A stretch of DNA of 64,000 nt from Dehalococcoidia bacterium (lineage in GTDB: Bacteria; Chloroflexota; Dehalococcoidia; Lucifugimonadales; UBA3495): contig CAXXKY010000005.1 in NCBI GenBank assembly GCA_963667325.2, forward strand, positions 260,579-324,578. The letters are read 5' to 3'. The notes beneath the pieces are model-generated. The model had not been told where the DNA came from. It ran no database searches and saw only the letters and a list, made by a program, of their open reading frames with translations. Made by a program: the position numbers and the translations under genes. This document shows, piece by piece, positions 25,842-46,602 of the stretch; position 1 is the first letter of the stretch, and every line of letters starts with the position of its first letter.

Positions 25842-25916
25842 TCCCCGATAGCTCAGCGGTAGAGCGGGCGGCTGTTAACCGCTAGGTCGTAGGTTCGAAT
25901 CCTACTCGGGGAGCCA
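25842..25916 (+). tRNA. tRNA-Asn (GTT)
   Basis: tccccga acceptor pairs with tcgggga. D-arm gctcagcggtagagc, anticodon loop ctGTTaa, T-arm gtaggttcgaatcctac, encoded CCA. Confidence 0.9.
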
Positions 25917-26335
25917 CAGCTACAAAATGGGCGTCCAGAGTCGGCAAACTATGGATGATTGTCACAGCGGTTAACACGCGACTCAAAGCTGCCCCAGCTT
26001 TGGAGATGCCACAGCGGTTACCCGAAATCCTCGAAAACTATGTCCTGTACCACCGCATTGAGGGCAGCACAGAGGCCACCGTCAAGTTCTAGGCCAAGAA
26101 ACTGCGGCTGTTTCTGCAGGATCTCGAAAAGATTGATCCTGACTGCCAGAACCTGACCGATCTCTCCTCTCTCCACGTCCCTCAGCACCTCGGTTCGATG
26201 CGTGAGCGAGGCCTGAAGCCCCGTTCAATCCGCACCCGGTGGCAAGCAATCGCCACCTCGTTGAACTGGAATGTTGAGTGGGGCCTCATCGACACCTCGC
26301 CTGCAGCACGAATCAAAGCCCCCAAGGTACCCAAG

Positions 26336-28032
26336 CCCGAATCCACCGATAGGGACGGGCTAGCGTAGAAGGAAGGGGCCTTTGGGGCAAAGGGTGGGTT
26401 GGACTGGTGATTTTCGCAGACCGGGACGGTCGGTGTACCCGATTGGCGGTTTGGAGACGGTTGCCCAGGCGCTCAGAGACAGAGATTTGACGGATTTGAC
26501 GGGTGGCGAGGCACGTGGAGTCCCTCGCGGGCCGAGCTGGCGCGAGTCTGAAGGGTCAATACCTGGGTCCGGTGGCGTTGTGCGGTCAAGCAGGGAGTGG
26601 CAGGGTGCGCAGTTTGAGCAGGGCGCGATGCACCTGGTCCTGCCAGGGCCAGCCTTTGGGAAGGTGCAGGGTGATGCGGCGGGCCTTGCGGGTGACCCGC
26701 CCGGCCAGAGAGAAGAAGCGCTGGCGGAGGGTCTTGGTGCTGACCACCTGCTGGCCCAGGGCAATTCGCGCCGTCCAGCGAGCCAGGTTGTGGGCCATGA
26801 CCTGGACAGCCAGCCAGGCGGCATTGGCAGGGAAGCGTCCCGATGGGAGATGGTTGAGGCCGACGCCGTACTTCAGGTCTCTGATGGCGTTCTCCACCTC
26901 GGCGTGGCGGCGGTGGTCGGCCTCCAGTTCCAGGGTGTCGCCTTCTCTATTGGTGATGAAGCCGTGGTAGCTATAGGTGTGGAAGAGGGCCAACTGGGAG
27001 CCGGGCGTGGGCTTCACCCGGCGGACGATGAGACGCACCGGCGCGGCGTCGGGTTCACTCTGGAAAGGCGTGTAAGTTGTCCCGGCCACGTCGGCGGCGC
27101 CCTCCATCCAATAGGGTATGGGCGTCCAGTCCCCTTCGGGTATGGCCTCAATGAGATCGCGCAGGCTCTGGTGCTGGCGGATGGTGATGGAGAAGCGGAC
27201 ACCCTTGTTGCGGCATGCGGCGACCACGTCGTGGTTGTAGAAGCCGCTGTCGGCCCGCAGGGTGAGCTGGCCTTTGGCTCCAGCGCAGCGGACCCGGCTC
27301 ACCGTCTCCCGCAGGAAGTTGGCGGCGCCCCGGGCGGTGTTGGCCCGGCCCTGGCGGAGACGGGCCATCAGCACGTCGCCGGTGCCAGCAGCCACGGCCA
27401 GCAGGGGATGATAGCCGCGTTGACCGTTGTAGTTGTGCCGGCGGGCTCCTTCCTTGGCCAAGCCATAGGTCTCGCAGTTGGTGGAGTCCACGTCGATGGT
27501 CAACGGCCCGTCGCCGGGTCCTGCCCCAGCGGCCCAGGCCCGTGCCAGCAGTTCCCGGCTCACCCGATCCAGTTGGCGCACGTGTCCCCACCGGAAGCTC
27601 CGGAGGAAGATGCCCAGGGTGGACGGGGCCTTCACGGTACAACCCAACACCGCAGCGGTCCTGCCGGTGCGCATCGCGTCGGCGTCGTCAATGCAGTCGC
27701 CGCCAGCCAGGGCCGATGCCACCAACGTCATGATCTTGTCTCCCGCGTTGGCTCGTCCCGGGGCACGGCCCAAGTCCAGGCACCGGCCCACCAGTTGGGG
27801 CAGACCCAAATGCTGGGCCAGGGTGGCGGGAAGAATCAGCCCGGCATTGTTGACCAAGCGGTGGTCGTCAAAGGCGATTCGGATGCGGCGGAGGTGGTTG
27901 CGTGGTAGCATCTCTTGGGTGCTCCTCTTCCGGGGTCGGTTTTCTGATCAAAAACCATTATCCCAGATTCACAGGAGCACCCTCTTACCCTTTCAGCACG
28001 CCCTCAATCCTCAACCCTTCGGTGGATTCGGG
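26336..28032 (-). mobile_element. IS1380-family insertion sequence, copy 2 (1,697 bp, inverted relative to copy 1)
   Basis: Same terminal repeats: cccgaatccaccg at 26336 and cggtggattcggg ending at 28032. Its own 5-bp target duplication CCAAG lies at 26331-26335 and 28033-28037. Confidence 0.9.
26586..27911 (-). CDS. IS1380-family DDE transposase
   Basis: 441 aa. 25 substitutions relative to copy 1, about 94% identity counted by eye. Confidence 0.9.
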   Translation of the reverse strand: MLPRNHLRRIRIAFDDHRLVNNAGLILPATLAQHLGLPQLVGRCLDLGRAPGRANAGDKIMTLVASALAGGDCIDDADAMRTGRTAAVLGCTVKAPSTLGIFLRSFRWGHVRQLDRVSRELLARAWAAGAGPGDGPLTIDVDSTNCETYGLAKEGARRHNYNGQRGYHPLLAVAAGTGDVLMARLRQGRANTARGAANFLRETVSRVRCAGAKGQLTLRADSGFYNHDVVAACRNKGVRFSITIRQHQSLRDLIEAIPEGDWTPIPYWMEGAADVAGTTYTPFQSEPDAAPVRLIVRRVKPTPGSQLALFHTYSYHGFITNREGDTLELEADHRRHAEVENAIRDLKYGVGLNHLPSGRFPANAAWLAVQVMAHNLARWTARIALGQQVVSTKTLRQRFFSLAGRVTRKARRITLHLPKGWPWQDQVHRALLKLRTLPLPA

Positions 28033-28669
28033 CCAAGACACGGAAGCCTTTTTTGACTGAGGAGCAGTTCGCCTCTCTGATCGAGCTTTGCCCCCTGAAC
28101 ACCTTCGCAGGCGCTCGCAGGCAATCCATGTTGTAGATGATGGCCACCACTGGTATCAGAAGAAACGAAATGTGGATGCTGAAAAAGTGGGACCTGGACT
28201 GGGACAATTCAGTGATTCGAATGACCTTCGGCAAGGGCCAGAAAGAGAGACAGGTACCGTTCGAACGGCACTGTCAGCGAGCGATGCTCCGTTACTTGCA
28301 ACAGCGTTGGGATTCTCTGGAGTGGCTATGGATCACCGAGGAGGGAATCAGACTGGGATATGACGGAATCTGGCAGGACTTGAAGCGGTTATCAGAAAGG
28401 GCAAATGTGGAAATGAAGGATGCCTGCCACATATTCAGGAGGACCTTTGCCGCCAATGCCGTAAAGCAAAGCATCCCTCGACCGTACGTGCAGGCGATTG
28501 CGGGTTGGTCTACTCCCCAGATGCTGGACCAACTACGTGGCGGCGATGGAAGCGGAAGAGGAGGCTATTGAAGCATTCAGGCAATTCAAGCCTTTCGGGA
28601 AATAGGTCGTTCCGATCGCTCTGCGTCGCACTCAGGCGTGCTTAGATCCTGGGACAGTTCGAAAGCTAT

Positions 28670-28715
28670 CCTGATAAGACCGAGGTCGATGGTTCGAGTC
28701 CATCCAGGCCCACCA
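28670..28715 (+). other. 3' fragment of a tRNA-Ile(GAT) gene (att-site remnant)
   Basis: cctGATaag-accgaggtcgatggttcgagtccatccaggcccacca matches the anticodon loop through CCA of bacterial tRNA-Ile(GAU). The upstream sequence cannot form the anticodon-stem 5' strand, D-arm or acceptor 5' strand. Confidence 0.75.
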
Positions 28716-28905
28716 CACACCTCAATTATGGTAAATTCAGATACAAAATGACGGCTTTTTCTCTCAGGTGCCACCAGATGAATGGTCGTCAAGCAGCATT
28801 TTGACCACAGTCTTCGCGCAAACGGGAAACGGTTTCTCAGCAGCCTAAAGGCCTCCAACCGGTACTCCGAAGGGTACCTCGCCAGCCTCGAAACCACCCC
28901 CCGGC

Positions 28906-29808
28906 ATGGCCGCCTTGTACGCCGAGGAGCAGGGCTGGCCCGATGTGCAGGAAATCACCACCGAGCACATCGAGGACTACCTGTCCTACCTCCAGGACCG
29001 GGAGCGGTGGTTCGGTGAGCGTACATACGCCGAGCCCAAGAAGCTCTCCAAGGGCCACATCAACGCCCAGTACCGCCGCCTCAACCGGTTCTTCGACTGG
29101 CTGGTGGAGCGCAAACATATCGACGAGAATCCGCTCGGCGATATAGAGCCGCCCAGCCTGGACGAGAAGACTGTTCCTATCGTCACAGAAGACCAGATGC
29201 GGGACCTGCTGACCCTTGCCGATCCCGCCCTCGCCAGGACTCCCGCCCACCGCTTCCGCTTGACTCGCGACCGGGCAGTGCTGTACGCATTTTGGGATAC
29301 TCCAGGCCGACTGAACGAAATCGCCAAGCTGCGACTCCAAAACACTGACCTGACCAACGGCACGCTGCAGGTGATGGGCAAGGGTCGCAGAGAGCGAAAA
29401 ATGCCCGTTGGCGACACGGCGAGGTCCGTGATCTGGGACTACCTGCAGGAAAGAGAATCCCTCATGCCCCGCACTGAGGCTCTGTGGGTGTCTGAGCAGG
29501 GTGAGGCGCTACTGTCCAACGGAGTCCGCCAGCTTCTCATGCGCCTGGCGAAGCGGGCCAATATCGAGGGCATGCATCCGCACCGTTTCCGCCATTCCTA
29601 CGCCATCAACGCGCTGCGGGCCGGCATGCCGGAGCAGGTGCTAAAAATCGTCGGTGGGTGGAGGAAGATACCCGAGACCTACTTCAAGACTTTGGGGAAG
29701 AGGACGCCATCGAGTTCCACCGACAGGTCAGCCCCGGAGACCGGCTGGGGAAGTCGGTGTCGTCCCGCAAGGCGCGGCAACACGGTCGCCTACGGGGGAA
29801 GGTTGTAA
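28906..29808 (+). CDS. tyrosine recombinase/integrase (XerC/D-like); longest ORF of a gene with frameshifts at both ends
   Basis: SAM-like N-domain plus catalytic R ('WDTPGRLNEI'), 'HRFRHSY', 'GGW' and Y ('PETYF'). An N-terminal extension (28782-28900, '...FLSSLKASNRYSEGYLASLE') lies in another frame across a C6 run. The C-terminal tail '...EEDAIEFHRQVSPGDRLG' lies in another frame after a G4 run and ends at 29813. Confidence 0.8.
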   Translation: MAALYAEEQGWPDVQEITTEHIEDYLSYLQDRERWFGERTYAEPKKLSKGHINAQYRRLNRFFDWLVERKHIDENPLGDIEPPSLDEKTVPIVTEDQMRDLLTLADPALARTPAHRFRLTRDRAVLYAFWDTPGRLNEIAKLRLQNTDLTNGTLQVMGKGRRERKMPVGDTARSVIWDYLQERESLMPRTEALWVSEQGEALLSNGVRQLLMRLAKRANIEGMHPHRFRHSYAINALRAGMPEQVLKIVGGWRKIPETYFKTLGKRTPSSSTDRSAPETGWGSRCRPARRGNTVAYGGRL

Positions 29809-29853
29809 AATAAATTCTACTATTTCCGTCGTCAAACGGTTGTGCGGGTGCAT

Positions 29854-30285
29854 ATGAAGATTTATTTCGCCGGATCCATACGTGGAGGAGATGAAGATCG
29901 GAAGATTTATCACAGTCTCATCGGAAGGCTGCAGCGATTCGCTGAAGTCCTTACTGAACACATTGGAGACCCTGCATTGACGGATCGAGGCGAAAACACA
30001 AAACCGGACGGTGAAATCTTCGAACGGGACATTGCGTGGATTCGTGAGGCGGACGTCATCGTGGCGGAAGTAACCGTCCCGTCGCTAGGGGTAGGGTACG
30101 AGCTGGGTATCGGGGAATCCTTTGGAAAGCCTGTAATTTGCCTGTATAGGGAAAAAGATGGGCGACAACTATCGGCGATGATTGGCGGTAACCCACGGTT
30201 TCAAGTTCAGGTTTATCAGGATGTGGACGCAGCGGTTGAATTAGTGAAAGACTTCATAGACCATGGAGTCGCACGAAAACTCTGA
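29854..30285 (+). CDS. DNPH1/Rcl-like 2'-deoxynucleoside 5'-phosphate N-hydrolase (nucleoside 2-deoxyribosyltransferase-like fold)
   Basis: 143 aa. 'MKIYFAGSIRGG', 'READVIVAEVTVPSLGVGYELG' and 'LSAMIGG...RFQV' match, from memory, the full length and catalytic motifs of animal DNPH1 (IYFCGSIRGG / PSLGVGYELG / LSAMI). Confidence 0.8.
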   Translation: MKIYFAGSIRGGDEDRKIYHSLIGRLQRFAEVLTEHIGDPALTDRGENTKPDGEIFERDIAWIREADVIVAEVTVPSLGVGYELGIGESFGKPVICLYREKDGRQLSAMIGGNPRFQVQVYQDVDAAVELVKDFIDHGVARKL

Positions 30286-30390
30286 TTCTTGTCAATCCGC
30301 ACCAGCTTTTTTGAACTCTCGCTCGAGAGAGCCTTGGTGCAAACTGTGAATTAGGGACGCAGGCTACCTTCGCCTACAGGTATTCAGCTA

Positions 30391-33207
30391 ATGACCAGCG
30401 TTACTCCCGAACAACGAGCGAGGGCCAACATCGACCGGCTGCTGGAGCTGTCGGGGTGGACGGTGCAGGACCTCGCCGCCCTGAACGTCCATGCAAACCG
30501 CGGCGTGGCGGTGCGGGAGATTCCGCTGCGTAGCGGCCACGGCACCGCAGACTACCTGCTGTATGTGGACGGCAAGGCGGCCGGCGTGGTCGAGGCCAAG
30601 CCCGTGGGCCACACGCTGACGGGCGTTGAGGCGCAATCAGGAAAGTACGGCGCGGGCCTGCCGGACAACCTGCCCTGCTTCGTACGTCCGCTGCCGTTCC
30701 TGTACGAGAGCACTGGCTCGGAGACGCGGTTCACCAACGGGCTGGACCCTCAACCCCGCAGCCGGAACGTGTTCTCCTTCCACAAACCGGAGACACTGGC
30801 GGAGTGGCTGGATACATCCACTGCCTCCTGGGACCCAGGGCAGCGGCTGGCTGCGGAAACCCAGGCTCCATACTCTGCTACATACAGCCTGCGCCACATG
30901 CTCACCACCATGCCGCCGCTGGACGACTCCGGCCTCTGGTCGGTGCAGGCGGAGGCCATTCGCAACCTGGAGCAGTCGCTGGCCGAGGCTCGCCCGCGCT
31001 CGCTGGTGCAGATGGCAACCGGCAGCGGCAAGACGTTCATGGCTTGCAACCAGGTGTACCGCCTCATCAAGCACGCGGGTGCGCGCCGGGTGCTGTTCCT
31101 AGTTGACCGCAGCAACCTGGGGCGACAGACGCTGCGGGAGTTCCAGGGCTTCACTGTCCCCGGCGACGGACGCAAGTTCACCGAACTCTACAACGTCCAG
31201 CTTTTGCAATCGAACAGCATCGACCCGGTGAGCAAGGTCTGCATCTCCACCATCCAGCGGGTCTACTCAATGCTGAGGGGCGAGGAACTGGACCCGGAGC
31301 TGGAGGAGGCGTCCGGTTACGACGTGGCGACTGCCCGATCATCACCGCAGACTGTGGAGTACAGCCGGAACTTTCCCATAGAGGAGTTTGACTTCATCAT
31401 CACGGACGAGTGCCACCGCTCGATCTACGACCTGTGGCGGCAGGTGCTGGAGTACTTCGACGCCTTCCTCATCGGGCTCACGGCCACGCCGTCCAAGCAG
31501 ACCATGGGCTTCTTCAACCAGAACCTGGTCATGGAGTACAACCATCAGCAGGCGGTCGTCGACGGCGTCAACGTCCCCTACAACGTCTATCGCATCGAAA
31601 CGAAAATCACGGATGAGGGCTCCTCCATCGAGGCTGGCATGTCGGTGGACCGTCGGGACCGCCGCACCCGTAAGGTTCGCTGGGAGGAGCTGGAAGAGGA
31701 ACTGCCCTATACCTCCAGCCAGCTCGATCGCGAGGTGGTGTCAGAGGACCAGATCCGCACGGTTATCCAGACCTTCCGCGACAGGGTGACCACCGAGATA
31801 TTCCCCGGCCGGGAGCACGTGCCCAAGACCATCATTTTCGCCAAGGACGACAGCCACGCCGACGACATCGTAAACATCGTGCGTGAGGAGTTCGCCAAGG
31901 GCAACGAGTTCTGCCAGAAGATCACCTACCGCACGACCGGGGCCAAGCCCGAGGACCTGATCACGCAGTTCCGCAACAGCTTCAATCCCCGCATCGTGGT
32001 GACCGTGGACATGATCGCGACCGGCACCGACATCAAGCCCGTCGAGATCGTGTTTTTCATGCGCAACGTGCGGAGCCGTAACTTTTTCGAGCAGATGAAG
32101 GGGCGCGGCGTTCGCAGAATCTCACAGACGGACTTCAACCAGGTGACGCCGGACGCCACAGACAAGGAACGCTTCGTCATCGTGGATGCCGTGGGTGTCA
32201 CCGAGAGTGAGCTGGGCGAGTCCTTCTCGCTGGACCGCAAGCCATCGGTTCCCTTCGACAAGCTGCTGGACCTGGTGGCCATGGGCAACCGGGAGCCGGA
32301 CACGCTGTCGTCGCTGGCCAGCCGCCTGGCCCGGCTGGACCGGCGGCTCTCGCCCCAGGACAAGCAGGCGGTGGAGTCGGTGGCCGACGGCGCGACGCTG
32401 AAAGAACTGGTATCGAATCTGGTGAATGCCACCGACCCTGACGAGTCGCTGAAAGCAGCACGGCAGGCAACTGGACAGGACGACCCGCCGGAGGAGGCCA
32501 TCGCCAAAGCGGAAAAGGAGCTGCTGGATTCGGCGGCCAAGCCCTTCGCCGCCAACCCGGAGCTGCGGCAGCGACTGATCGACATCCACCGAGCCTACGA
32601 GCAGACCATTGACACGGTGTCGCAGGACACGGTGCTGCGGGCCGAGTTTTCCGGCGCTGAGGCCGACGAACTCACCCGCTCCTTCCGCGAGTACATTGAG
32701 GAACACCGCGATGAGATCACGGCCCTGCAGGTGCTGTACCAGCGGCCCTACAGCCAGCGCCTCAGCTACGCCGACATCCGGGCCCTGGCCGCCGCGCTGC
32801 AGAGCCCGCCACGCTCTTGGACTCCGCCGCGGCTGTGGGACGCCTACCGGCAACTCGACCAGTCGCGGGTGCGCGGCTCCAGCCAGCGGGTGCTGGCCGA
32901 CATCGTGTCGCTGGTGCGCTACGCCGTCGGCCACGAGGGCGAACTGGCTCCCTTCGCCGAGCAAGTGGAGGAGCGGTTCCGGGGCTGGCTGGCGACGCAG
33001 GAGATCGCCGGGCGGGAGTTCACCGACGAACAGCGCCAGTGGTTGGAGGACATCAAGGACCACATCGCCGGCAGCGTCAGCATCGAACCCGCCGACCTCC
33101 AACACGTCCCCTTCGTCCAGCGGGGTGGCATTGGCCGGGCCCACGCCCTCTTCGGCGACGGGCTGGCACCGCTGCTGGAGGAGCTGAACCTGGCGCTGGT
33201 GGGGTAA
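30391..33207 (+). CDS. hsdR: type I restriction enzyme, R subunit
   Basis: 938 aa. N-terminal PD-(D/E)xK nuclease ('ADYLLYVDGKAAGVVEAKP'), SF2 motor ('MATGSGKTF', 'ITDECHRS', 'LTATP') and a long helical C-terminal domain. Confidence 0.9.
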   Translation: MTSVTPEQRARANIDRLLELSGWTVQDLAALNVHANRGVAVREIPLRSGHGTADYLLYVDGKAAGVVEAKPVGHTLTGVEAQSGKYGAGLPDNLPCFVRPLPFLYESTGSETRFTNGLDPQPRSRNVFSFHKPETLAEWLDTSTASWDPGQRLAAETQAPYSATYSLRHMLTTMPPLDDSGLWSVQAEAIRNLEQSLAEARPRSLVQMATGSGKTFMACNQVYRLIKHAGARRVLFLVDRSNLGRQTLREFQGFTVPGDGRKFTELYNVQLLQSNSIDPVSKVCISTIQRVYSMLRGEELDPELEEASGYDVATARSSPQTVEYSRNFPIEEFDFIITDECHRSIYDLWRQVLEYFDAFLIGLTATPSKQTMGFFNQNLVMEYNHQQAVVDGVNVPYNVYRIETKITDEGSSIEAGMSVDRRDRRTRKVRWEELEEELPYTSSQLDREVVSEDQIRTVIQTFRDRVTTEIFPGREHVPKTIIFAKDDSHADDIVNIVREEFAKGNEFCQKITYRTTGAKPEDLITQFRNSFNPRIVVTVDMIATGTDIKPVEIVFFMRNVRSRNFFEQMKGRGVRRISQTDFNQVTPDATDKERFVIVDAVGVTESELGESFSLDRKPSVPFDKLLDLVAMGNREPDTLSSLASRLARLDRRLSPQDKQAVESVADGATLKELVSNLVNATDPDESLKAARQATGQDDPPEEAIAKAEKELLDSAAKPFAANPELRQRLIDIHRAYEQTIDTVSQDTVLRAEFSGAEADELTRSFREYIEEHRDEITALQVLYQRPYSQRLSYADIRALAAALQSPPRSWTPPRLWDAYRQLDQSRVRGSSQRVLADIVSLVRYAVGHEGELAPFAEQVEERFRGWLATQEIAGREFTDEQRQWLEDIKDHIAGSVSIEPADLQHVPFVQRGGIGRAHALFGDGLAPLLEELNLALVG

Positions 33208-33308
33208 ACAGGCATTTCCGCTCTGCATGGGGTCTGTCGGGATGTTTCTTGACCTTTGGCGGGTTGCGACAACAGAATGGAGTAAGACTGTCCCAGGGGG
33301 AATCGGCG

Positions 33309-33536
33309 ATGGCTACAGCGCGGCAGAAGTTTTCCAGCCAGGCCGCACCGGAATTGCTGGAGGGAATGCGGGAGATTGCCCGCAGGGAAGGCAGGCAGTT
33401 TCAGGCAGTACTGGAAGAAGCCATGGCCAGCTACATCGAAAGCAAGGCCCCCGAAGGAGTGCGTCCTGAGTTCATGGCTCACTACCGGGCCAGCCTGGAG
33501 CGAAACCGGTTGCTGGCTCAGTTGCTGGCTCAGTGA
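33309..33536 (+). CDS. ribbon-helix-helix antitoxin (partner of Doc)
   Basis: 75 aa: 'FSSQAAPELLEGMREIARREGRQFQAVLEEAMASYIE'. Its stop overlaps the GTG of the Doc gene (GTGA). Confidence 0.7.
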   Translation: MATARQKFSSQAAPELLEGMREIARREGRQFQAVLEEAMASYIESKAPEGVRPEFMAHYRASLERNRLLAQLLAQ

Positions 33537-33928
33537 GCAGCAACTTTCCGACCATACAGGAGATTGTTGCCGTCCACGAGGACCTGATCGAGCAATTCGG
33601 CGGCCCCCACGGCTTGCGTGATATGGGAGCGCTGGAGTCGGCGCTATACCGTCCACAGATGGGGTACTATGACGGGCTTATCGAGGAAGCCGCTGCTCTG
33701 ATGGAAAGCCTGACCATGAACCATCCGTTCATAGACGGCAACAAGCGGGTGGCTTTTTTCGTAACGGCGGCCTTTCTGATGCAGAACGGCCACTACATAG
33801 ACTGCGACAGTCGGGAAGCCTACGATCATTTCATGCATCTGTTCGATACAAACACCTTCCGGTTTGCCGAAATGAAGGACTGGCTGGAGGGCCATGTCAG
33901 GCCCCTACCGCCGGTCGGGGATGGGTAG
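33533..33928 (+). CDS. doc: Fic/Doc-family toxin (death-on-curing type)
   Basis: 131 aa with the Fic motif 'HPFIDGNKRVAF' and the typical Doc N-terminus 'I..HE.LI..FGG..G.RD.G.LESAL.RP'. Confidence 0.85.
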   Translation: MSSNFPTIQEIVAVHEDLIEQFGGPHGLRDMGALESALYRPQMGYYDGLIEEAAALMESLTMNHPFIDGNKRVAFFVTAAFLMQNGHYIDCDSREAYDHFMHLFDTNTFRFAEMKDWLEGHVRPLPPVGDG

Positions 33929-33940
33929 AGGGGATTACCG

Positions 33941-34201
33941 ATGAAGTATGTGGCAACAATTGGCAAGAGTGGCAACGGCTATGCGGCGCACCTGCCCGAT
34001 CTGCCCGGCTGCAGCGATGCCGCAGATACCTTCAAGGAAACCCGTAACCCTATGGAAGAGGCCACCAACTTTCACGTCGAAGGGATGATTGAGGATGGCG
34101 AGACCATCCCCCAACCCAACTACTACTTCGCCGTGGAAGTCGAGGTTGAAGTGCCAACCATCGATGTGCCGCAACAGGCCGCCGTTGAGAGCGGAGGATG
34201 A
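33941..34201 (+). CDS. HicB-like (UPF0150) antitoxin-fold protein, no HicA partner in the window
   Basis: 86 aa: 'YAAHLPDLPGC...G.T.EE......EA...H.EGM.EDGE.IP'. Its stop overlaps the hsdS ATG (ATGA). Confidence 0.7.
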   Translation: MKYVATIGKSGNGYAAHLPDLPGCSDAADTFKETRNPMEEATNFHVEGMIEDGETIPQPNYYFAVEVEVEVPTIDVPQQAAVESGG

Positions 34202-35724
34202 TCCAGCCGGAACTCCCCGCAGGCTGGGCTCTCGCCACCCTCGGAGTTATTTGCGACAAACCGGAATACGGTTGGACCACGAAAGCCGTTGTTGATCGAG
34301 GCGCGCTGAAACTCCTACGGACTACCGACATTTCGAAAGGCCCCATTGACTGGTCAAAGGTTCCCTACTGTGAGCAAGAACCTCCATCGCCAGAGAAATA
34401 TCTCCTATCCGACGGCGATATTGTCATTTCCAGGGCCGGTTCTGTTGGCCTTAGCGCACTAATCTCAAACTGCCCTGACGCTGTTTTCGCATCATACCTA
34501 ATCCGGTTCAGGGCTAATTCCAAGCTGGAAAAAAAGTACCTGAATTATTTCCTTTCGAGTCCGTCATATTGGGAACAAATCTCCCAAGAGTCCGCGGGCA
34601 TTGCCCTGCAAAACGTCAACGCCAAGAAGCTGTCGAACATTACCCTCCCCCTCCCGCCCCTGGCCGAGCAGCGGCTCATTGTGGCGGAGATCGAGACGCA
34701 GTTCACTCGGCTGGACGCGTCTGTGACGGCGCTGCGGCGGGCGCAGGCCAACCTGAAGCGCTACCGGGCCAGCGTCCTCAAGGACGCCTGTGAGGGCCGC
34801 CTGGTCCCCGCCGAGGCGGAGTTGGCCCGCTCCGAGGGCCGCGAGTACGAATCTGCCGACGTCTTGCTGGAGCGCATCCTGGCCGAGCGCCGCGCCCGAT
34901 GGGAGTCGCAAGAGAAGCGGCGGGGCAAGTACAAGGAACCCTCCGCCCCCGACACCTCCGCACTGCCGGAGCTGCCAGAGGGCTGGGTGTGGGCGAGTTT
35001 GGAAGCGATTTCCGAACTCAAGGGAGGCGTTACCAAGGGGCAACGTTATGCAAGCGAGCAAACGCTCCGAGAAGTCCCGTACTTGAGGGTTGCAAACGTA
35101 CAGAGAGGGTTTTTGGACTTGGACCGAGTCACGACCATAGAGACATCCGAGAAGAATATAGAGCGGCTGCGACTAAAGGCCGGGGACGTTCTGTTCACTG
35201 AAGGTGGCGACAGGGACAAACTCGGTCGTGGTTGGGTTTGGAAAGGCGAAATCGAAGGATGCATCCATCAGAACCATGTTTTCAGATCTCGACCGTTCTC
35301 AAACAGCGTTATTCCGGAGTTTGTATCTTGGTGGGGAAATTCGTTTGGCCAAGATTTCTTTTCGCGGTTCGGAAAGCAAACCACGAATCTGGCTTCAATT
35401 AACCTGACAGTTCTTTCTCAATTCCCCATTCCCGTCCCGCCGCTGGTGGAACAGCGGCGCATCGTTGCGGAGGTGGAGCGGCGGCTGTCGGTGGTGCAGC
35501 AGGCGGATGCGACGGTGGAGGCAAGCCTGGCCCGGGCGGAGCGGCTGCGGCAGAGTATCCTCAAGAAGGCGTTCTCCGGCAGGCTGGTGCCCCAGGACCC
35601 CGACGACGAGCCGGCGTCGGTGCTGCTGGAGCGCATCAGGGCCGAGCGCGAGGCGGAAGCGCAGGCATCGGCTGCCAGCAAGGGCAAGTCCCAACGGCGT
35701 GGCAAAAGGAAGGCGACGGCATGA
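34198..35724 (+). CDS. hsdS: type I restriction-modification specificity subunit
   Basis: 508 aa with two target-recognition domains. They are separated and followed by the conserved helices 'PLPPLAEQRLIVAEIE...' and 'PVPPLVEQRRIVAEVE...'. Confidence 0.9.
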   Translation: MIQPELPAGWALATLGVICDKPEYGWTTKAVVDRGALKLLRTTDISKGPIDWSKVPYCEQEPPSPEKYLLSDGDIVISRAGSVGLSALISNCPDAVFASYLIRFRANSKLEKKYLNYFLSSPSYWEQISQESAGIALQNVNAKKLSNITLPLPPLAEQRLIVAEIETQFTRLDASVTALRRAQANLKRYRASVLKDACEGRLVPAEAELARSEGREYESADVLLERILAERRARWESQEKRRGKYKEPSAPDTSALPELPEGWVWASLEAISELKGGVTKGQRYASEQTLREVPYLRVANVQRGFLDLDRVTTIETSEKNIERLRLKAGDVLFTEGGDRDKLGRGWVWKGEIEGCIHQNHVFRSRPFSNSVIPEFVSWWGNSFGQDFFSRFGKQTTNLASINLTVLSQFPIPVPPLVEQRRIVAEVERRLSVVQQADATVEASLARAERLRQSILKKAFSGRLVPQDPDDEPASVLLERIRAEREAEAQASAASKGKSQRRGKRKATA

Positions 35725-37199
35725 CGACCTCGGTGGACATCGGTCAGAAGCTCTGGAACTACTGCAACATCCTGCGCGACGCCGGGCTGTCCTACGGCGA
35801 CTACCTGGAGCAGCTCACCTACCTCATCTTCCTCAAGATGATGGACGAGCGCAGCCGCCCGCCCTTTACCCTGCTGCCGGACTACCAGCCGCCGCCCATC
35901 CCCGAGGGCTACCGCTGGCCCGACCTGCTGGCCCTCGACGGCGCCGAGCTGGAGACCCACTATCGCCGCACCCTGGAGACGCTGGGCAAACAGCCCGGCA
36001 CCCTGGGCGTCATCTTCGGCAAAGCCCAGAACCGCATCCAGGAGCCGGCCATGCTGACCCGGCTGGTGCAGGAGTTGATCAACAGCGAGGACTGGCTGCA
36101 ACTCAGCGCCGACGTGAAGGGCGACGCCTACGAGTCGCTGCTGGAACGCAACGCCCAGGACGTGAAGACCGGCGCCGGGCAGTACTTCACGCCGCGCCCG
36201 CTGATTCGGGCCATCGTGGACGTGATGCACCCCGGCCCCGATGACAGCATCTGCGACCCGGCCTGCGGCACCGGCGGCTTCCTGCTGGCCGCCCACGACT
36301 ACATTGTCGCCGAAAATCCGTCCATGGACCGGGACCAGCGGGAGCGGCTGCAGCGCGACGCCCTGCACGGCTGGGAGATCGTGGACAGCGCGGCGCGGCT
36401 CTGCGCCATGAACCTGTACCTCCACGGCATCGGCGGCGACGAGACCAACATCACCGTGGACGACAGCCTGCGGGCCCATCCGGGGGTCAACTACGACCTG
36501 GTGCTGACCAACCCGCCCTTTGGCCGCAAGTCGTCGCTGACCTTCGTCAACAGCGAGGGCGAGACTGAGCGGGAGACGCTGACGGTGGAACGCCCCGACT
36601 TCTGGGCCACCACCAGCAACAAGCAGCTCAACTTCCTCCAGCACGTTCGCACGCTGCTGAAGAACACCGGGAGCGCGGCCATAGTGGTGCCGGACAACGT
36701 GCTGTTCGAGGGCGGCGCCGGGGAGACGGTGCGCCGCCGCCTGCTGGCCGAGTGCGACGTCCACACACTGCTGCGGCTGCCCACGGGCATCTTCTACGCC
36801 CAGGGTGTCAAGGCCAACGTGCTGTTCTTCGACCGCAAGCCGGCCGCCGAGACACCGTGGACGCGGGAGCTGTGGATCTACGACCTGCGCACCAACCGCC
36901 GTTTCACGCTGAAGGCCAACCCGCTGACCCGCGCCGACCTCGACGACTTCGTGGCCTGCTACAACCCGGAGAGCCGCCTCCAACGCGAGGAGACCGAGCG
37001 CTTCCGCCGCTTCACCTATGACGATCTGGTCAAGCGCGACAAGGCCAACCTCGACATCTTCTGGCTCCGCGACGAGAGCATGGAGGACACCGCCGCCCTC
37101 CCCCCGCCCGACGTCATCGCCGCCGAGATCCTGGAGGACCTACGCGCCGCCCTCGAGCAGCTGGAGGAGATCGCGGGGGACTTGGGGACGGATCCTTAG
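35721..37199 (+). CDS. hsdM: type I restriction-modification N6-adenine DNA methyltransferase
   Basis: HsdM N-domain, AdoMet motif 'DPACGTGGFL' and catalytic 'LTNPPFG'. Its ATG overlaps the hsdS stop. Confidence 0.9.
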   Translation: MTTSVDIGQKLWNYCNILRDAGLSYGDYLEQLTYLIFLKMMDERSRPPFTLLPDYQPPPIPEGYRWPDLLALDGAELETHYRRTLETLGKQPGTLGVIFGKAQNRIQEPAMLTRLVQELINSEDWLQLSADVKGDAYESLLERNAQDVKTGAGQYFTPRPLIRAIVDVMHPGPDDSICDPACGTGGFLLAAHDYIVAENPSMDRDQRERLQRDALHGWEIVDSAARLCAMNLYLHGIGGDETNITVDDSLRAHPGVNYDLVLTNPPFGRKSSLTFVNSEGETERETLTVERPDFWATTSNKQLNFLQHVRTLLKNTGSAAIVVPDNVLFEGGAGETVRRRLLAECDVHTLLRLPTGIFYAQGVKANVLFFDRKPAAETPWTRELWIYDLRTNRRFTLKANPLTRADLDDFVACYNPESRLQREETERFRRFTYDDLVKRDKANLDIFWLRDESMEDTAALPPPDVIAAEILEDLRAALEQLEEIAGDLGTDP

Positions 37200-37333: not shown

Positions 37334-37945
37334 TCAGTTGGATCCGAGGTTGCTCACGAGACCGGGCATCCATTCGACGGCCTCGGGGTAGTAGGCGAGA
37401 TCTAGGACGAGCTCCTGCCCTCTGCCAACGCTCCGCAGGTAGGCGTGGTTTGCGTCCCGACGCCAGCGTCTGCGGTCGGGATGGTAGGTCAAAGGCGGCT
37501 TGTTGCCGTCTGGATAGAACCACCGGGGGATCCGCCATTGCGAAACACCCGGACCGTTGGGGTCAGTCAGGACCAGCCGTCGGTCGAACTTGGGGAACAC
37601 TCCCCAGCCGGCGATGTCTAACTGGTCGTCACCGCCCAGGTCCAGTTTTGTTGACGCCGCGTAGACGGTGTTCTTGTCGTCGCGGTAATTCGATAAGAGG
37701 TGTGGATGATGGAACGCCCACGATAGGTCATTTGGCCCGAGGTCGGCCACCCGATACTTCTGGTCGACGTGGAGCCAGCCCCACAGGACGTGGAGTTCCG
37801 GAGCCCCTCTGACGAAACGCCACCCTTGGGAGGTTTGCTCAACTCGGCGGTAGAAGCCGAAGAACAGGAAGACGTCGCCGCTGCCGACGCCCTGTCTGTC
37901 GAGATAGCCCTGCGCGGTGCCGACTTGGCCGAGCATGCTCGCCAC
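37334..37945 (-). CDS. hypothetical protein, probably the 3' part of a gene disrupted upstream (frameshift plus IS5 insertion)
   Basis: 203-aa ORF (GTG start) with 'GDVFLFFGFYRRVE...HVLWGWLHV'. A plausible peptide, LDPDLDFDSYRYRKDRPAWQQW, lies directly upstream in another frame and runs up to the IS boundary at 38007/38008. Confidence 0.5.
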   Translation of the reverse strand: MASMLGQVGTAQGYLDRQGVGSGDVFLFFGFYRRVEQTSQGWRFVRGAPELHVLWGWLHVDQKYRVADLGPNDLSWAFHHPHLLSNYRDDKNTVYAASTKLDLGGDDQLDIAGWGVFPKFDRRLVLTDPNGPGVSQWRIPRWFYPDGNKPPLTYHPDRRRWRRDANHAYLRSVGRGQELVLDLAYYPEAVEWMPGLVSNLGSN

Positions 37946-38007
37946 TGCTGCCAGGCAGGTCGGTCCTTCCGGTATCGGTACGAGTCGAAGTCAAGGTCGG
38001 GGTCTAG

Positions 38008-39067: not shown

Positions 39068-39372
39068 CTAGAGCAGGAGGGCGGCGGCCAGCAGGCTGGG
39101 CGGGACGCTGTCCCAGTCGGTTTCTGCGCAGTAGGACAAAGCGAAATCGGCGTCCCGGAACTACTGGCTCCGCAGCGAGGCCAGCAAACCGTAGGGGTTG
39201 ACCACTCCACAGGGTCAAGATGCAGCCGGTTCCGAACGCTCTTCCAAGACTCTCAGCCCTCGCTACGCTAGTCGCGTTTGTTGACCCCAAGTTCAGGCAG
39301 AGACGGAGAGACCCCACTGTCAGGCTAGATTTCTAGGCGCCCTGTTACACTAGACTATGGCCGGTTGAAAAC

Positions 39373-40884: not shown

Positions 40885-41430
<546 letters not shown>

Positions 41431-41535
41431 TTACCGACAGGCGGTCGTTGCCTCCAGTATCGACCGGCCGGCAAATGGCCGCAAGCGAGGGCTTGGCCAG
41501 ACTGAAACGCCAGGCTCTACCGAAAAGGAACAAAG

Positions 41536-44220: not shown

Positions 44221-44260
44221 CGTGGTGAGGGCCAAATTGCTGACAGTCCTTCGTTGAAAA

Positions 44261-44290
44261 GGTGGTGCCTTTGCACCATCATCTGATTTG
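44261..44290 (+). terminator. possible attenuator/terminator hairpin between cas3 and cas8e
   Basis: 8-bp stem ggtggtgc/gcaccatc with loop cttt (44261-44280), followed by atctgatttg. The U-tract is weak. Confidence 0.3.
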
Positions 44291-44333
44291 ACTGACTAAC
44301 GTAATGCATTTCGGAAAGGGCGGAACGATACCA

Positions 44334-46573: not shown

Positions 46574-46602
46574 CGACTGAAACAGACGAAGGAGACTGAC
46601 CA

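What the first reader, a model, noticed from the sequence alone, without database searches (positions are those of the whole stretch)
29854..30285. DNPH1/Rcl-like dNMP N-glycosidase between an integrase and a type I R-M system
The 143-aa ORF matches eukaryotic DNPH1 along its whole length. This is from memory of the rat/human sequence.
- It keeps the Tyr-containing 'IYFxGSIRGG'.
- It keeps the catalytic-Glu motif 'PSLGVGYELG'.
- It keeps the phosphate-binding 'LSAMI'.

DNPH1 cleaves the glycosidic bond of dNMPs and is known to prefer 5-hydroxymethyl-dUMP. Here the gene sits alone, 40 bp after an integrase and 105 bp before hsdR, inside a defence island.

The hypothesis is a nucleotide-pool-directed defence or counter-defence gene. 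It could destroy modified dNMPs that phages use to escape restriction, or deplete dNMPs during infection. Single-gene nucleotide-depleting defences are known (dCTP deaminase, dGTPase), but I know of no described DNPH1-type defence.
Basis: partly seen in the sequence, partly recalled or inferred. Interest (0 to 1): 0.7.

Follow-up and report, generated by a model that had tools for sequence, protein, structure and literature searches.

The report
DNPH1-type nucleotide hydrolase leading a restriction cassette
A small bacterial gene closely related to the human enzyme that destroys 5-hydroxymethyl-dUMP is the conserved first gene of a mobile type I restriction-modification cassette in one bacterial lineage, which suggests, without proving, that it helps restriction by removing the modified DNA building blocks phages use to escape it.

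Summary
**Observation: confirmed.**
- Window 29854-30285(+) encodes a 143-aa DNPH1/Rcl orthologue (PDB E about 1e-36, AF2/Foldseek TM about 0.8).
- Every catalytic and hmdUMP-contacting residue of the human enzyme is kept.

**Setting.**
- The gene lies in a tRNA-Asn island, after two decayed integrases and 105 bp before hsdR-Fic-HicB-hsdS-hsdM.
- A type I-E CRISPR-Cas locus lies about 4 kb beyond hsdM.

**New finding: a conserved linkage.**
- All relatives at 59-91% identity whose context could be read lie in this cassette setting. Most sit directly upstream of the same EcoEI-type hsdR, usually after the integrase.
- They occupy at least 9 different flanking contexts and form one clade (96/100 bootstrap).
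- The gene is under purifying selection (dN/dS 0.08-0.27).
- The clade has lost an otherwise invariant Arg in the phosphate-lid loop.
- The gene is persistently GC-poor.

**Evidence against a general defence role.**
- The wider family (49-58% identity, 83 loci) shows no defence linkage. Its neighbours are U32 peptidase, Tmk, SHMT, ThyA, NUDIX and NTPase_I-T.
- Related R-M cassettes exist without the gene.

**Verdict.** It is a real DNPH1-family N-glycosidase captured once by a mobile R-M module. A role against modified nucleotides is plausible (about 0.4). A hitch-hiking pool sanitiser is nearly as likely.

The parts
25842..25916 (+). tRNA-Asn (GTT), left border of the island
   Evidence: ARAGORN and Rfam RF00005 at 71.8 bits. 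Synteny with the Dehalococcoidia MAG locus L001 runs through ClpB-DnaJ up to about 26335. No second copy of the tRNA 3' end was found in the window.
25990..28571 (+). First tyrosine integrase, next to the tRNA, destroyed by an IS. The N-terminal remnant is at about 25990-26340. The IS transposase (DDE_Tnp_1_4) is at 26586-27911 on the minus strand. The C-terminal fragment is at 28137-28571.
   Evidence: Pfam Phage_integrase 2.9e-20 for 28137-28571, and DDE_Tnp_1_4 4.5e-63 for 26586-27911(-). The window sequence at 26335-28033 is absent from L001. There is an in-frame stop in the fragment just upstream of the called ORF. The N-terminal remnant was identified by direct reading.
28782..29808 (+). 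Second tyrosine integrase, directly upstream of the DNPH1-like gene; a pseudogene in this window
   Evidence: Pfam Phage_integrase 6.5e-25. It is 97% identical to the intact 341-aa L001 protein, but residues 1-39, 41-306 and 302-327 lie in different frames.
29854..30285 (+). DNPH1/Rcl-type 2'-deoxynucleoside 5'-monophosphate N-glycosidase, 143 aa (the finding)
   Evidence: - Identity.
- Residues kept (window = human): Y4=Y24, I9=I29, R10=R30, E35=E55, H36=H56, D52=D73, I55=I76, D59=D80, S77=S98, E83=E104, S107=S128.
- dN/dS 0.08-0.27.
- GC 0.50 and GC3 0.49.
30391..33207 (+). hsdR, type I restriction subunit of the EcoEI_R_C family, 938 aa, intact
   Evidence: Pfam EcoEI_R_C 7e-40 and ResIII 2e-35. 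PADLOC REase_I 2e-43. It is 72-95% identical to many metagenomic HsdR proteins.
33533..33928 (+). Fic/DOC-domain gene embedded between hsdR and hsdS
   Evidence: Pfam Fic 1.2e-15. This slot is variable in related cassettes, which carry HicB, Uma2 or small ORFs there.
33941..34201 (+). HicB-like antitoxin gene
   Evidence: Pfam HicB_lk_antitox 5e-12. It recurs at this position in L004, L006, L089, L090 and L096.
34198..35724 (+). hsdS specificity subunit
   Evidence: Pfam Methylase_S 5.9e-19. PADLOC Specificity_I 1.6e-120. It is only 46-50% identical between cassettes, consistent with swapped target-recognition domains.
35721..37199 (+). hsdM methyltransferase subunit; right end of the conserved module (homology ends at about 37192)
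   Evidence: Pfam N6_Mtase 5.2e-66 and HsdM_N. PADLOC MTase_I 3.5e-190. Module boundary from blastn.
37334..37945 (-). Truncated Nmad3 ('nucleotide modification associated domain 3') gene next to hsdM, cut by the IS at 38003-39072
   Evidence: Pfam PF18754 2.7e-40, matching profile positions 85-247 of 247 only. IS inverted repeats at 38003-38027 and 39048-39072. IS transposase at 38186-38989(-).

Best explanation
**What is shown**
- The ORF encodes a functional DNPH1-family enzyme. It is a dimeric Rossmann-like N-glycosidase that cuts the base off a 2'-deoxynucleoside 5'-monophosphate through a covalent Glu-deoxyribosyl intermediate.
- All residues that position and cleave 5-hydroxymethyl-dUMP in the human enzyme are intact.
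- In one clade, whose only taxonomic labels are Dehalococcoidia and Chloroflexota, a housekeeping-type gene of this family was captured once. It became the first gene of a mobile cassette: tyrosine integrase, DNPH1-like gene, hsdR, variable toxin/antitoxin-type guest genes, hsdS, hsdM.
- It has since travelled with that cassette under purifying selection.

**What is inferred**
- It works as an accessory to restriction by hydrolysing non-canonical dNMPs, with 5-hydroxymethyl-pyrimidine dNMPs as the prime candidates.
- Phages make these dNMPs as the first committed precursors of restriction-resistant hypermodified DNA.
- Removing the precursor would force the phage to replicate with ordinary bases, which the adjacent type I enzyme (and CRISPR-Cas) can attack.
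- Host dNMP pools would be largely spared if the enzyme shares the strong preference of its human orthologue for the modified substrate.
For: **Enzyme identity**
- PF05014 6e-16.
- Rat and human DNPH1 at about 1e-36 over the full length.
- AF2 pLDDT 88, with Foldseek hits all DNPH1 at TM about 0.8.
- The catalytic triad Y/D/E, the LTEH motif (E55/H56), R30/D73, I29/I76 and the two phosphate serines are all conserved.
- Residue roles come from PMC10603095 and PMC10483697.
- Human kcat/KM is 52,380 M-1 s-1 for 5hmdUMP and 27 M-1 s-1 for dUMP (PMC10483697).

**Linkage to the R-M cassette**
- Every homologue at 59-85% identity whose context could be read lies in the cassette setting, and all but L005 sit directly upstream of the same hsdR family. 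These are the window, L001, L004, L006, L007, L089, L090, L091/92, L093, L094, L095 and L096-98. In L005 the R-M genes are replaced by IS copies, and in L095 an IS lies between the gene and hsdR.
- The left flanks differ in at least 9 ways.
- The island is 90% identical between the window and L001, while the flanking core genes are 72-80% identical.
- The linked genes form one clade, with 96/100 bootstrap support.

**Selection and persistence**
- dN/dS is 0.08-0.27.
- The gene stays intact where the R-M genes are broken or replaced by IS elements (L005, L091-94).

**Signs of a functional shift after capture**
- The Arg equivalent to human R33, in the Ile29-Glu34 phosphate-lid loop, is present in 83/83 unlinked loci and in 89 further homologues.
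- It is D/S/T/N/Y/P in all 35 closest homologues.

**Thematic context: modified nucleotides**
- A MazG+MazG_C gene, a dCTP-deaminase-like gene and a 5-hmdU-DNA-kinase-helical-domain gene follow hsdM in L001, L004 and L007. MazG_C follows it in L096-98.
- GmrSD_N follows hsdM in L089.
- A truncated Nmad3 gene follows hsdM in the window.
- Independently, a 52%-identical homologue on Selenomonas plasmid pSRC2 lies between a (d)NTP pyrophosphohydrolase and a DUF262 (GmrSD-type) gene.
- Phages make 5-hmdUMP from dUMP as the entry to thymidine hypermodification, which blocks restriction enzymes (PMC5889632).
Against: - The wider family shows no defence association. Among 83 loci with 49-58%-identical homologues, none has R-M genes or this integrase nearby.
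- The immediate neighbours of those homologues are Peptidase_U32 (10), Tmk (4), Bact_hydrolase (4), SHMT (3), NTPase_I-T (3) and NUDIX (3). PADLOC hits among them are few and weak.
- The association is a single evolutionary event, so persistence could be plain physical linkage on a mobile element.
- Closely related cassettes work without the gene. HsdR at 80% identity (P0232, Chloroflexota) and at 72% (P0250) have no DNPH1-like gene upstream.
- The gene is retained when the R-M genes are lost (L005). So its value does not depend on restriction.
- There is no PADLOC or NCBIfam model for it.
- There is no sensor or regulatory domain.
- The 105-bp gap to hsdR and the lack of a detectable promoter or terminator leave co-transcription unknown.
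- The substrate is inferred from the human enzyme only. The altered lid loop could mean a different substrate.
- Nothing is known about modified-DNA phages of these uncultured hosts.
Confidence: 0.4

Rival explanations
1. Hitch-hiking housekeeping sanitiser. The gene does the ordinary job of the prokaryotic family, which is clearing damaged or non-canonical dNMPs such as 5-hm-dUMP from the host's own pool. It was captured next to an integrase by chance and is carried along by the mobile R-M island without taking part in defence.
For: - The wider family sits with thymidylate and pool-sanitising genes (Tmk, SHMT, ThyA, NUDIX, NTPase_I-T) and not with defence genes.
- The active site is identical in linked and unlinked members.
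- The capture happened once.
- R-M relatives lack the gene.
- It is retained after loss of the R-M genes.
- Close homologues are essentially absent from phage collections. There are none in 50,697 phage genomes and one in 2.9 million viral contigs.
Against: - A housekeeping gene is not expected to ride a variably present mobile island through at least 9 insertion contexts while always keeping the same position before hsdR.
- Loss of an otherwise invariant Arg, specific to this clade.
- Faster protein evolution than its R-M neighbours: 59-85% identity against 84-93%.
- A persistent 10-12-point GC deficit that unlinked homologues do not show.
- Together these indicate a changed selective regime after capture.
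Confidence: 0.33
2. Clean-up enzyme for the products of restriction and methylation. It hydrolyses dNMPs released when restricted DNA is degraded, or N6-methyl-dAMP from turnover of the host's own methylated DNA. The result is that these are not salvaged by the phage or re-incorporated at random.
For: - Constant position in front of hsdR.
- DNPH1 binds N6-substituted purine nucleotides tightly. Crystal structures with N6-isopentenyl-AMP and 6-cyclopentyl-AMP are among the top structural matches.
- HsdM is an N6-adenine methyltransferase.
Against: - This is purely inferential.
- The human enzyme is very slow on canonical dNMPs (PMC10483697).
- Related cassettes lack the gene.
- The uracil-recognising His of the LTEH motif is kept (PMC10603095).
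Confidence: 0.1
3. General dNMP-depleting (abortive-infection-like) effector. On infection it destroys the dNMP pool and starves phage replication. This would be analogous to the dCTP deaminase and dGTPase defences or to the NDT-like retron Ec86 effector.
For: - NDT-fold domains are described or predicted as effectors in retron Ec86 (10.1101/2023.08.16.553469) and type VIII Thoeris (10.64898/2025.12.03.692087).
- The low GC3 could reflect throttled expression of a harmful enzyme.
Against: - The protein is a single 143-aa catalytic domain with no sensor, partner or antitoxin conserved next to it.
- It is a close orthologue of non-toxic housekeeping enzymes.
- It gives no PADLOC hit.
Confidence: 0.07
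4. Deoxyribose-5-phosphate transferase. Like phage DmtZ, it uses the covalent intermediate to move deoxyribose-5-phosphate onto a non-canonical base. This would make a modified dNMP for a host DNA-modification pathway encoded by the neighbouring MazG_C, DCD-like, HMUDK_hel or Nmad3 genes.
For: - DmtZ, an NDT/DNPH1-like phage enzyme, transfers dR5P from dAMP to 2-aminoadenine (PMC12884076).
- Nucleotide-modification-associated genes recur beside the cassette.
- The lid loop is altered in this clade.
Against: - E55, which releases the intermediate by hydrolysis, is kept (PMC10603095).
- The modification-associated genes are present in only some cassettes and are separated from the gene by the whole R-M operon.
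Confidence: 0.05

Closest known systems
Mammalian DNPH1 / Rcl (5-hydroxymethyl-dUMP N-hydrolase; PDB 2khz, 4fyh, 8qhq, 9da1)
   Same: - Same fold, similar size and a full-length alignment at about 45-50% identity (E about 1e-36, TM about 0.8).
- Identical catalytic triad (Y24/D80/E104) and identical LTEH motif (E55/H56).
- R30-D73 pair, I29/I76 base clamp and phosphate serines S98/S128' all kept.
   Different: - It is prokaryotic and lies on a mobile R-M island.
- It lacks the Arg equivalent to R33 in the phosphate-lid loop.
- It lacks the eukaryotic 'AADGS' insertion after the LSAMI helix and the N- and C-terminal extensions.
- Its substrate is untested.
Unlinked prokaryotic DNPH1-like proteins (annotated 'nucleoside 2-deoxyribosyltransferase' or 'DNPH1')
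   Same: - 49-58% identical, about the same length, with every active-site residue shared.
- About 800 clusters at 50% identity have E<=1e-10.
   Different: - They keep the lid-loop Arg.
- Their GC matches that of their genomes.
- They sit beside U32 peptidase, Tmk, SHMT, ThyA, NUDIX and NTPase_I-T genes, not beside R-M genes.
MilB / BlsM (hydroxymethyl-CMP / CMP N-glycosidases of nucleoside-antibiotic pathways)
   Same: - Same superfamily and chemistry on a hydroxymethyl-pyrimidine nucleotide (PMC10603095).
- The DNPH1-thyA operon on Apilactobacillus plasmids resembles the MilA-MilB pairing (the MilA/MilB pairing itself is from my own knowledge).
   Different: - MilB is ribo-specific.
- It uses Glu in place of H56 and an Arg for phosphate and hydroxymethyl contacts (PMC10603095).
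- The window protein has the DNPH1 solution at each of these positions.
NDT-fold defence effectors: retron Ec86 (Eco1) effector, type VIII Thoeris ThsI, AbiJ-NTD1-NDT fusions
   Same: They have the same superfamily fold and are used or predicted in anti-phage systems acting on nucleotides (10.1101/2023.08.16.553469; 10.64898/2025.12.03.692087; PMC3710099).
   Different: - Those are larger multi-domain proteins controlled by a reverse transcriptase with msDNA, by a TIR signal or by a sensor domain.
- None of these partners is present here.
- The window protein hits no PADLOC model.
Phage DmtZ (dAMP N-glycosidase / dR5P transferase of 2-aminoadenine phages)
   Same: It is a DNPH1-like fold acting on a dNMP in the phage-host contest over modified DNA (PMC12884076).
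   Different: - DmtZ is phage-encoded and works for DNA modification.
- It is a distant relative in sequence. No phage genome gives a tblastn hit at E<=1e-3.
Type I R-M operons carrying embedded accessory genes (for example prrC in the EcoprrI locus; own knowledge)
   Same: A type I hsd operon acts as a carrier of extra conflict-related genes. Here Fic, HicB and Uma2 occupy the hsdR-hsdS gap, and the DNPH1-like gene sits at the 5' end.
   Different: - The accessory gene here is a nucleotide-pool enzyme, not a nuclease or toxin.
- It sits before hsdR rather than inside the operon.

Membership tests
DNPH1 / Rcl family (dNMP N-glycosidases, within Pfam PF05014) | Significant match to the nucleoside 2-deoxyribosyltransferase-like profile, and a full-length match to solved DNPH1 proteins | tested here: met
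   PF05014 at 59.1 bits against a cut-off of 28.8. 2khz 1.6e-36 and human DNPH1 about 4e-36 over residues 2-130.
DNPH1 / Rcl family (dNMP N-glycosidases, within Pfam PF05014) | Catalytic triad: nucleophile Glu (E104), its Tyr partner (Y24) and the general acid Asp (D80) | tested here: met
   E83, Y4 and D59 align to these residues. They are invariant in 10/10 linked and 83/83 unlinked homologues. Residue roles are from PMC10603095 and PMC10483697.
DNPH1 / Rcl family (dNMP N-glycosidases, within Pfam PF05014) | LTEH(V/I) helix, with E55 for release of the intermediate and H56 for stabilising the uracil-type leaving group | tested here: met
   L33-T34-E35-H36-I37 is present. E and H are conserved in nearly all homologues.
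DNPH1 / Rcl family (dNMP N-glycosidases, within Pfam PF05014) | 5'-phosphate recognition that separates the family from nucleoside transferases: S98 and, from the partner subunit, S128' of LSAMI | tested here: met
   S77 and S107 are both invariant.
DNPH1 / Rcl family (dNMP N-glycosidases, within Pfam PF05014) | Intact phosphate-lid loop SIRGGR (human I29-E34) | tested here: inconclusive
   I9, R10, G11 and G12 are kept. The Arg equivalent to R33 is Asp here and D/S/T/N/Y/P in all 35 closest homologues, against Arg in all 83 unlinked loci and 89 further homologues. No role for R33 is stated in the papers I read.
DNPH1 / Rcl family (dNMP N-glycosidases, within Pfam PF05014) | Predicted fold superposes on DNPH1 | tested here: met
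   AF2 pLDDT 88.3 and pTM 0.86. The top 50 Foldseek PDB hits listed are all DNPH1/Rcl, TM 0.70-0.86.
DNPH1 / Rcl family (dNMP N-glycosidases, within Pfam PF05014) | Homodimer with a composite active site, and hydrolysis of dNMPs with a preference for 5hmdUMP | not testable with these tools
   This needs protein biochemistry. Only the monomer was modelled.
Type I restriction-modification system (the cassette that carries the gene) | HsdR, HsdS and HsdM all present, co-oriented and intact | tested here: met
   Pfam and PADLOC REase_I 2e-43, Specificity_I 1.6e-120 and MTase_I 3.5e-190. The ORFs are 938, 508 and 492 aa.
Known nucleotide-pool defence systems (dCTP deaminase, dGTPase, retron Ec86 NDT effector, Thoeris ThsI) | Homology to a catalogued defence protein, or presence of the required partner (reverse transcriptase with msDNA, TIR protein, sensor domain) | tested here: not met
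   There is no PADLOC hit at E<=1. The neighbours are an integrase and hsd genes only.
Defence-island-enriched gene family (guilt by association) | Homologues across many lineages lie next to known defence genes more often than expected | tested here: not met
   This holds only within one clade. In 83 other loci there are no R-M or Cas neighbours and only scattered weak PADLOC hits among 145 flanking proteins.

The most novel reading that the evidence does not exclude
A dedicated 'anti-hypermodification' arm of restriction. A DNPH1-type hydrolase, retuned after capture (altered phosphate-lid loop), destroys the phage-made 5-hydroxymethyl-pyrimidine dNMPs, or related non-canonical dNMPs, that are the entry point to restriction-resistant DNA. 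This would restore the sensitivity of modified-DNA phages to the adjacent type I enzyme. It would be the first defence component that targets phage-specific nucleotide precursors by N-glycosidic cleavage. It would also be a prokaryotic immune counterpart of the human pool sanitiser DNPH1.
Probability: 0.3. Interest if true: 0.8.

Novelty: new variant of a known kind. Interest (0 to 1): 0.55.

Why it matters
- Known defences starve phages of canonical nucleotides, and phages escape restriction by building DNA from modified ones. An enzyme that removes only the modified precursor would be a new, non-suicidal way to close that escape route.
- It would explain why a nucleotide sanitiser travels with a restriction cassette.
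- It would link human DNPH1, a drug target for PARP-inhibitor sensitisation, to an immune-type role in bacteria, as has been found for other nucleotide-pool enzymes.
- The hypothesis is directly testable with one 143-aa protein and existing hmU, hmC and hypermodified-thymidine phages.
- If the answer is negative, the case is still useful. It shows that a tight, conserved 'defence-island' adjacency can arise from a single capture event in a family that is otherwise housekeeping.

Tried and rejected
**Catalogue and collection searches**
- Known defence catalogue: PADLOC and NCBIfam gave no hit for the protein.
- Phage origin or counter-defence: there was no tblastn hit in 50,697 phage genomes. 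There was one 48%-identical hit in 2.9 million viral contigs, next to a Y-family polymerase. PHROGs gave only weak NDT matches. A phage-derived gene was therefore rejected.
- Exact-sequence look-up of the window protein: not on record.
- Cluster look-up for organism names returned none. The taxonomy of the clade rests only on L001 (Dehalococcoidia MAG) and one HsdR labelled Chloroflexota.

**Family-wide defence enrichment**
- Tested on 80 metagenome loci plus 3 others, and rejected.

**Local sequence features**
- Phase-variable shufflon reading of the integrase next to hsdS: there is only one hsdS, and the only repeat found is the usual internal hsdS repeat. Rejected.
- Island att site: no second copy of the tRNA-Asn 3' end is in the window.
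- Promoter and terminator scan around the gene found nothing above shuffled expectation. The operon structure stays open.
- Rfam: only the tRNA.
- Homologues of MazG_C, DCD-like and HMUDK_hel in the window: none. The window's Nmad3 remnant has no counterpart in the fetched loci.

**Tool failures**
- Literature searches for hmdUMP or DNPH1 combined with phage, anti-phage or restriction terms failed with time-outs.
- Prior art was therefore checked only through.
- The first bootstrap script timed out. It was redone with a faster distance method.
Full report
**1.
- Window 29854-30285(+) is an uninterrupted 143-codon ORF.
- It matches Pfam PF05014 (6e-16).
- Over its whole length it matches solved rat Rcl (1.6e-36) and human DNPH1 (about 4e-36).
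- An AlphaFold2 model built on 34 homologues is confident (pLDDT 88, pTM 0.86). Its top 50 listed PDB neighbours are all DNPH1/Rcl structures, with TM 0.70-0.86.
The register agrees with the PDB alignments, and the numbers printed are one too high.
- Every residue given a role in the human enzyme is present: Y4=Y24, D59=D80 and E83=E104 (catalytic triad); E35=E55 and H36=H56 (LTEH helix); R10=R30 with D52=D73; I9/I55=I29/I76; S77=S98 and S107=S128' (phosphate). Roles are from PMC10603095 and PMC10483697.
- The human enzyme prefers 5hmdUMP over dUMP by about 2000-fold (52,380 against 27 M-1 s-1; PMC10483697).

**2. The surroundings.**
- The gene lies in an island that starts at tRNA-Asn (25842-25916), downstream of clpB and dnaJ.
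- Gene order:
  - a tRNA-proximal tyrosine integrase split by an IS (transposase 26586-27911, minus strand);
  - a second integrase (28782-29808);
  - the DNPH1-like gene;
  - hsdR of the EcoEI_R_C type (30391-33207);
  - a Fic/DOC gene;
  - a HicB-like gene;
  - hsdS;
  - hsdM.
- Both integrases are dead in this window. The second has at least two frameshifts relative to an intact 341-aa orthologue.
- After hsdM comes a truncated Nmad3 ('nucleotide modification associated domain 3') gene, cut by another IS.
- Further on are a transglutaminase-like gene, a DEDDh exonuclease, and a complete type I-E cas operon with its array at 50698-51886.
- 'Defence island' is therefore correct.

**3. The gene belongs to a mobile cassette.**
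- A Dehalococcoidia MAG (L001) is syntenic with the window through the core genes at 72-80% nucleotide identity. The stretch from the integrases to hsdR is 89.6% identical and hsdM about 91%. The island is thus younger than, or exchanged independently of, its surroundings.
- I read the context of homologues at 59-85% identity, either by looking up their encoding contigs or by starting from HsdR. Most show the gene directly before the same hsdR family, usually after the integrase, on the same strand, with an 83-120 bp gap in most (longer in L007/L089 by the gene calls). These are L001, L004, L006, L007, L089, L090, L091/92, L093, L094 and L096-98.
- The left flanks differ in at least nine ways: ClpB/DnaJ/tRNA-Asn; PCMT-SIR2-MscS; glycine-cleavage genes; pyruvate-dehydrogenase genes; OTCase/PRTase; a second type I system; an ABC-F gene; and others.
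- In L095 an IS has landed between the gene and hsdR. In L005 the R-M genes are replaced by IS copies and homology stops exactly at the gene's stop codon.
- The gene remains intact where hsdR, hsdS or hsdM are broken or missing.

**4. One capture event, then a changed regime.**
- In a neighbour-joining tree of 97 sequences, the linked genes form a single clade nested among unlinked prokaryotic homologues. Bootstrap support is 96/100.
- Within the clade dN/dS is 0.08-0.27, so the protein is maintained by selection.
- Three features separate the clade from its relatives.
  - (a) The Arg equivalent to human R33 lies in the Ile29-Glu34 loop that closes over the 5'-phosphate (PMC10483697). It is present in 83/83 unlinked loci and in 89 further homologues. 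It is D, S, T, N, Y or P in all 35 closest homologues.
  - (b) The protein diverges faster than its neighbours. It is 59-85% identical between cassettes whose HsdR is 84-91% and HsdM 85-93% identical.
  - (c) The gene is persistently GC-poor: GC3 0.46-0.57, against 0.85-0.90 for hsdR and 0.91-0.95 for hsdM. Unlinked homologues match their loci, with a median difference of +0.007.
- I cannot explain (a) or (c). They are recorded as unexplained.

**5. The family as a whole is not a defence family.**
- The family is large. More than 7,900 clusters at 90% identity have E<=1e-5 (a capped search). About 800 clusters at 50% identity have E<=1e-10.
- In 80 metagenome loci plus 3 others carrying 49-58%-identical homologues, none has hsd genes or this integrase nearby.
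- The 145 immediately flanking proteins are led by Peptidase_U32 (10), thymidylate kinase (4), Bact_hydrolase (4), SHMT (3), NTPase_I-T (3) and NUDIX (3). Thymidylate-synthase homologues occur a gene further away.
- PADLOC matches among these proteins are few and weak.
- On Apilactobacillus plasmids the gene forms an operon with thyA.
- This is the picture of a pool sanitiser or thymidylate-linked enzyme.
- Conversely, HsdR proteins 80% and 72% identical to the window's sit in cassettes without the gene. The R-M system therefore does not need it.

**6. Hints that the theme is modified nucleotides.**
- Beside the cassette, related islands carry a MazG+MazG_C gene, a dCTP-deaminase-like membrane-anchored gene and a gene matching the helical domain of 5-hmdU DNA kinase at 3e-113 (L001, L004, L007). 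MazG_C is also found in L096-98.
- L089 has a GmrSD_N gene there. The window has the Nmad3 remnant.
- Independently, a 52%-identical homologue on Selenomonas plasmid pSRC2 lies between a (d)NTP pyrophosphohydrolase and a DUF262 (GmrSD-type) gene.
- Phages that hypermodify thymidine start by making 5-hmdUMP from dUMP, and the resulting DNA resists restriction enzymes (PMC5889632).
- These associations are suggestive, not statistical.

**7. Interpretation.**
- Shown: the enzyme family, the intact active site, the conserved mobile linkage, purifying selection and the clade-specific changes.
- Inferred: that the enzyme's job here is to hydrolyse phage-made non-canonical dNMPs, with 5-hydroxymethyl-pyrimidines as the prime candidates. 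Modified-DNA phages would then remain restrictable. I put this at about 0.4.
- Main rival (about 0.33): a housekeeping sanitiser captured once and carried along.
- Minor rivals: clean-up of restriction or methylation products, general dNMP depletion, and a DmtZ-like dR5P transferase feeding a host modification pathway (PMC12884076).

**8. Comparison with what is known.**
- The protein is a member of the DNPH1 family by every feature I could test. The lid-loop Arg is an exception of unknown significance.
- It is not a member of any catalogued defence system.
- It lacks the partners of the NDT-fold effectors described for retron Ec86, type VIII Thoeris and AbiJ-type fusions (10.1101/2023.08.16.553469; 10.64898/2025.12.03.692087; PMC3710099).
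- I found no description of a DNPH1 orthologue linked to an R-M system in the searches that ran. Several later searches failed, so prior art in very recent work cannot be excluded.

**9. Verdict.**
- It is a real and well-conserved feature. The enzyme is ordinary; its recruitment as the leader gene of a mobile type I R-M cassette is new.
- Its meaning is open and cheaply testable.
- Interest 0.55. Novelty: a new variant of a known kind.

Noticed in passing
L007:17174-20060; L001:17224-20190; L004:18514-20432; start of the same gene in L096-L098: A three-gene set follows hsdM in several related cassettes: MazG+MazG_C (PF18722, 1.8e-74), a dCTP-deaminase-like protein with a C-terminal membrane segment, and a protein matching the helical domain of 5-hmdU DNA kinase (PF18723, 3e-113) without an evident kinase domain. 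None of the three hits PADLOC. It may be an undescribed nucleotide-centred conflict system.
   Followed up: partly
window 37334-37945 (-): An N-terminally truncated Nmad3 ('nucleotide modification associated domain 3', PF18754, 2.7e-40, profile positions 85-247) gene lies directly after hsdM. It is cut by the IS bounded by the inverted repeats at 38003-38027 and 39048-39072. It has no counterpart in the fetched loci.
   Followed up: partly
window 29854-30285 and the same gene in L001, L004, L005, L007, L089, L093, L095, L096: The DNPH1-like gene is persistently GC-poor (GC3 0.46-0.57) next to hsdR (0.85-0.90) and hsdM (0.91-0.95), despite saturated synonymous divergence within the clade. Unlinked homologues match their loci. 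Unexplained.
   Followed up: partly
window residue 13 of the protein (codon at 29890-29892): The Arg equivalent to human R33 in the phosphate-lid loop is invariant in 83 unlinked loci and 89 further homologues. It is replaced by D/S/T/N/Y/P in all 35 closest homologues. Significance unknown.
   Followed up: partly
window 25990-29808: Both tyrosine integrases of the island are inactivated. The tRNA-proximal one is split by an IS (DDE_Tnp_1_4 transposase at 26586-27911, minus strand) and has an in-frame stop. The second has at least 2 frameshifts. The island is probably immobile in this genome, unless these are assembly errors.
   Followed up: yes
window 28033-37192 against L001: The island is about 90% identical in nucleotides to that of a Dehalococcoidia MAG, while the flanking core genes are 72-80% identical. 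This indicates recent horizontal exchange of the cassette. hsdS is only 46-50% identical, which fits swapped specificity domains.
   Followed up: yes
window 40885-51886: A complete type I-E CRISPR-Cas locus is present: a DEDDh/RNase_T exonuclease at 40885-41421(-), then Cas3, Cse1, Cse2, Cas7, Cas5, Cas6e and Cas1. The array has a GGTTCCCCCGCAGGCGCGGGGATAGACC repeat at about 50698-51886, and an IS transposase lies at 51992-52945 just after it.
   Followed up: partly
window 54893-63373 (-) and 53155-53670 (+): A 2826-aa ORF carries 14 Calx-beta repeats and cadherin-like domains, probably a giant surface adhesin. A separate Calx-beta fragment lies nearby.
   Followed up: no
L025, L034, L035, L045, L052, L054, L055, L059, L071, L077 and others (+1 gene): In unlinked homologues the commonest immediate downstream neighbour is a Peptidase_U32/DUF3656 protein of about 610-625 aa, in 10-11 of 83 loci. 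From my own knowledge, the U32 family includes oxygen-independent RNA and quinone hydroxylases. A functional pairing with a hydroxylated-pyrimidine nucleotide hydrolase might be worth a look.
   Followed up: no
L104 (Apilactobacillus kunkeei plasmid OX335326.1) 5001-6468: A DNPH1 homologue (annotated as DNPH1) is followed after 1 bp by a thymidylate-synthase homologue, inside a plasmid operon with ATP-grasp/ddl-like genes. This is reminiscent of the MilA/MilB hydroxymethylase-glycosidase pair of nucleoside-antibiotic pathways.
   Followed up: no
L103 (Selenomonas ruminantium plasmid pSRC2) 3922-7420: A 52%-identical homologue lies after a (d)NTP pyrophosphohydrolase and a hypothetical gene, and before a DUF262 (GmrSD-type) gene. 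Macro-domain, vWA and AAA genes are upstream. This is a possible independent association with defence against modified DNA.
   Followed up: no
L106 (E. coli IncY plasmid pTLYA-3) 2964-4510: A YaaC-family gene is fused head-to-tail (shared base) with a 169-aa NDT-like 'hypothetical protein' that is 33% identical to the query. The pair is present on 69 E. coli and several Salmonella and Cronobacter plasmids, a few kb from an annotated anti-phage dGTPase. It is a candidate two-gene defence pair.
   Followed up: no
L099, L100-101, L102: Cassettes with HsdR 72-80% identical to the window's lack the DNPH1-like gene and the tyrosine integrase. One has a serine recombinase on the opposite strand instead. 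The small ORFs after hsdR (134 and 83 aa, HicA/HicB-like) are conserved.
   Followed up: partly
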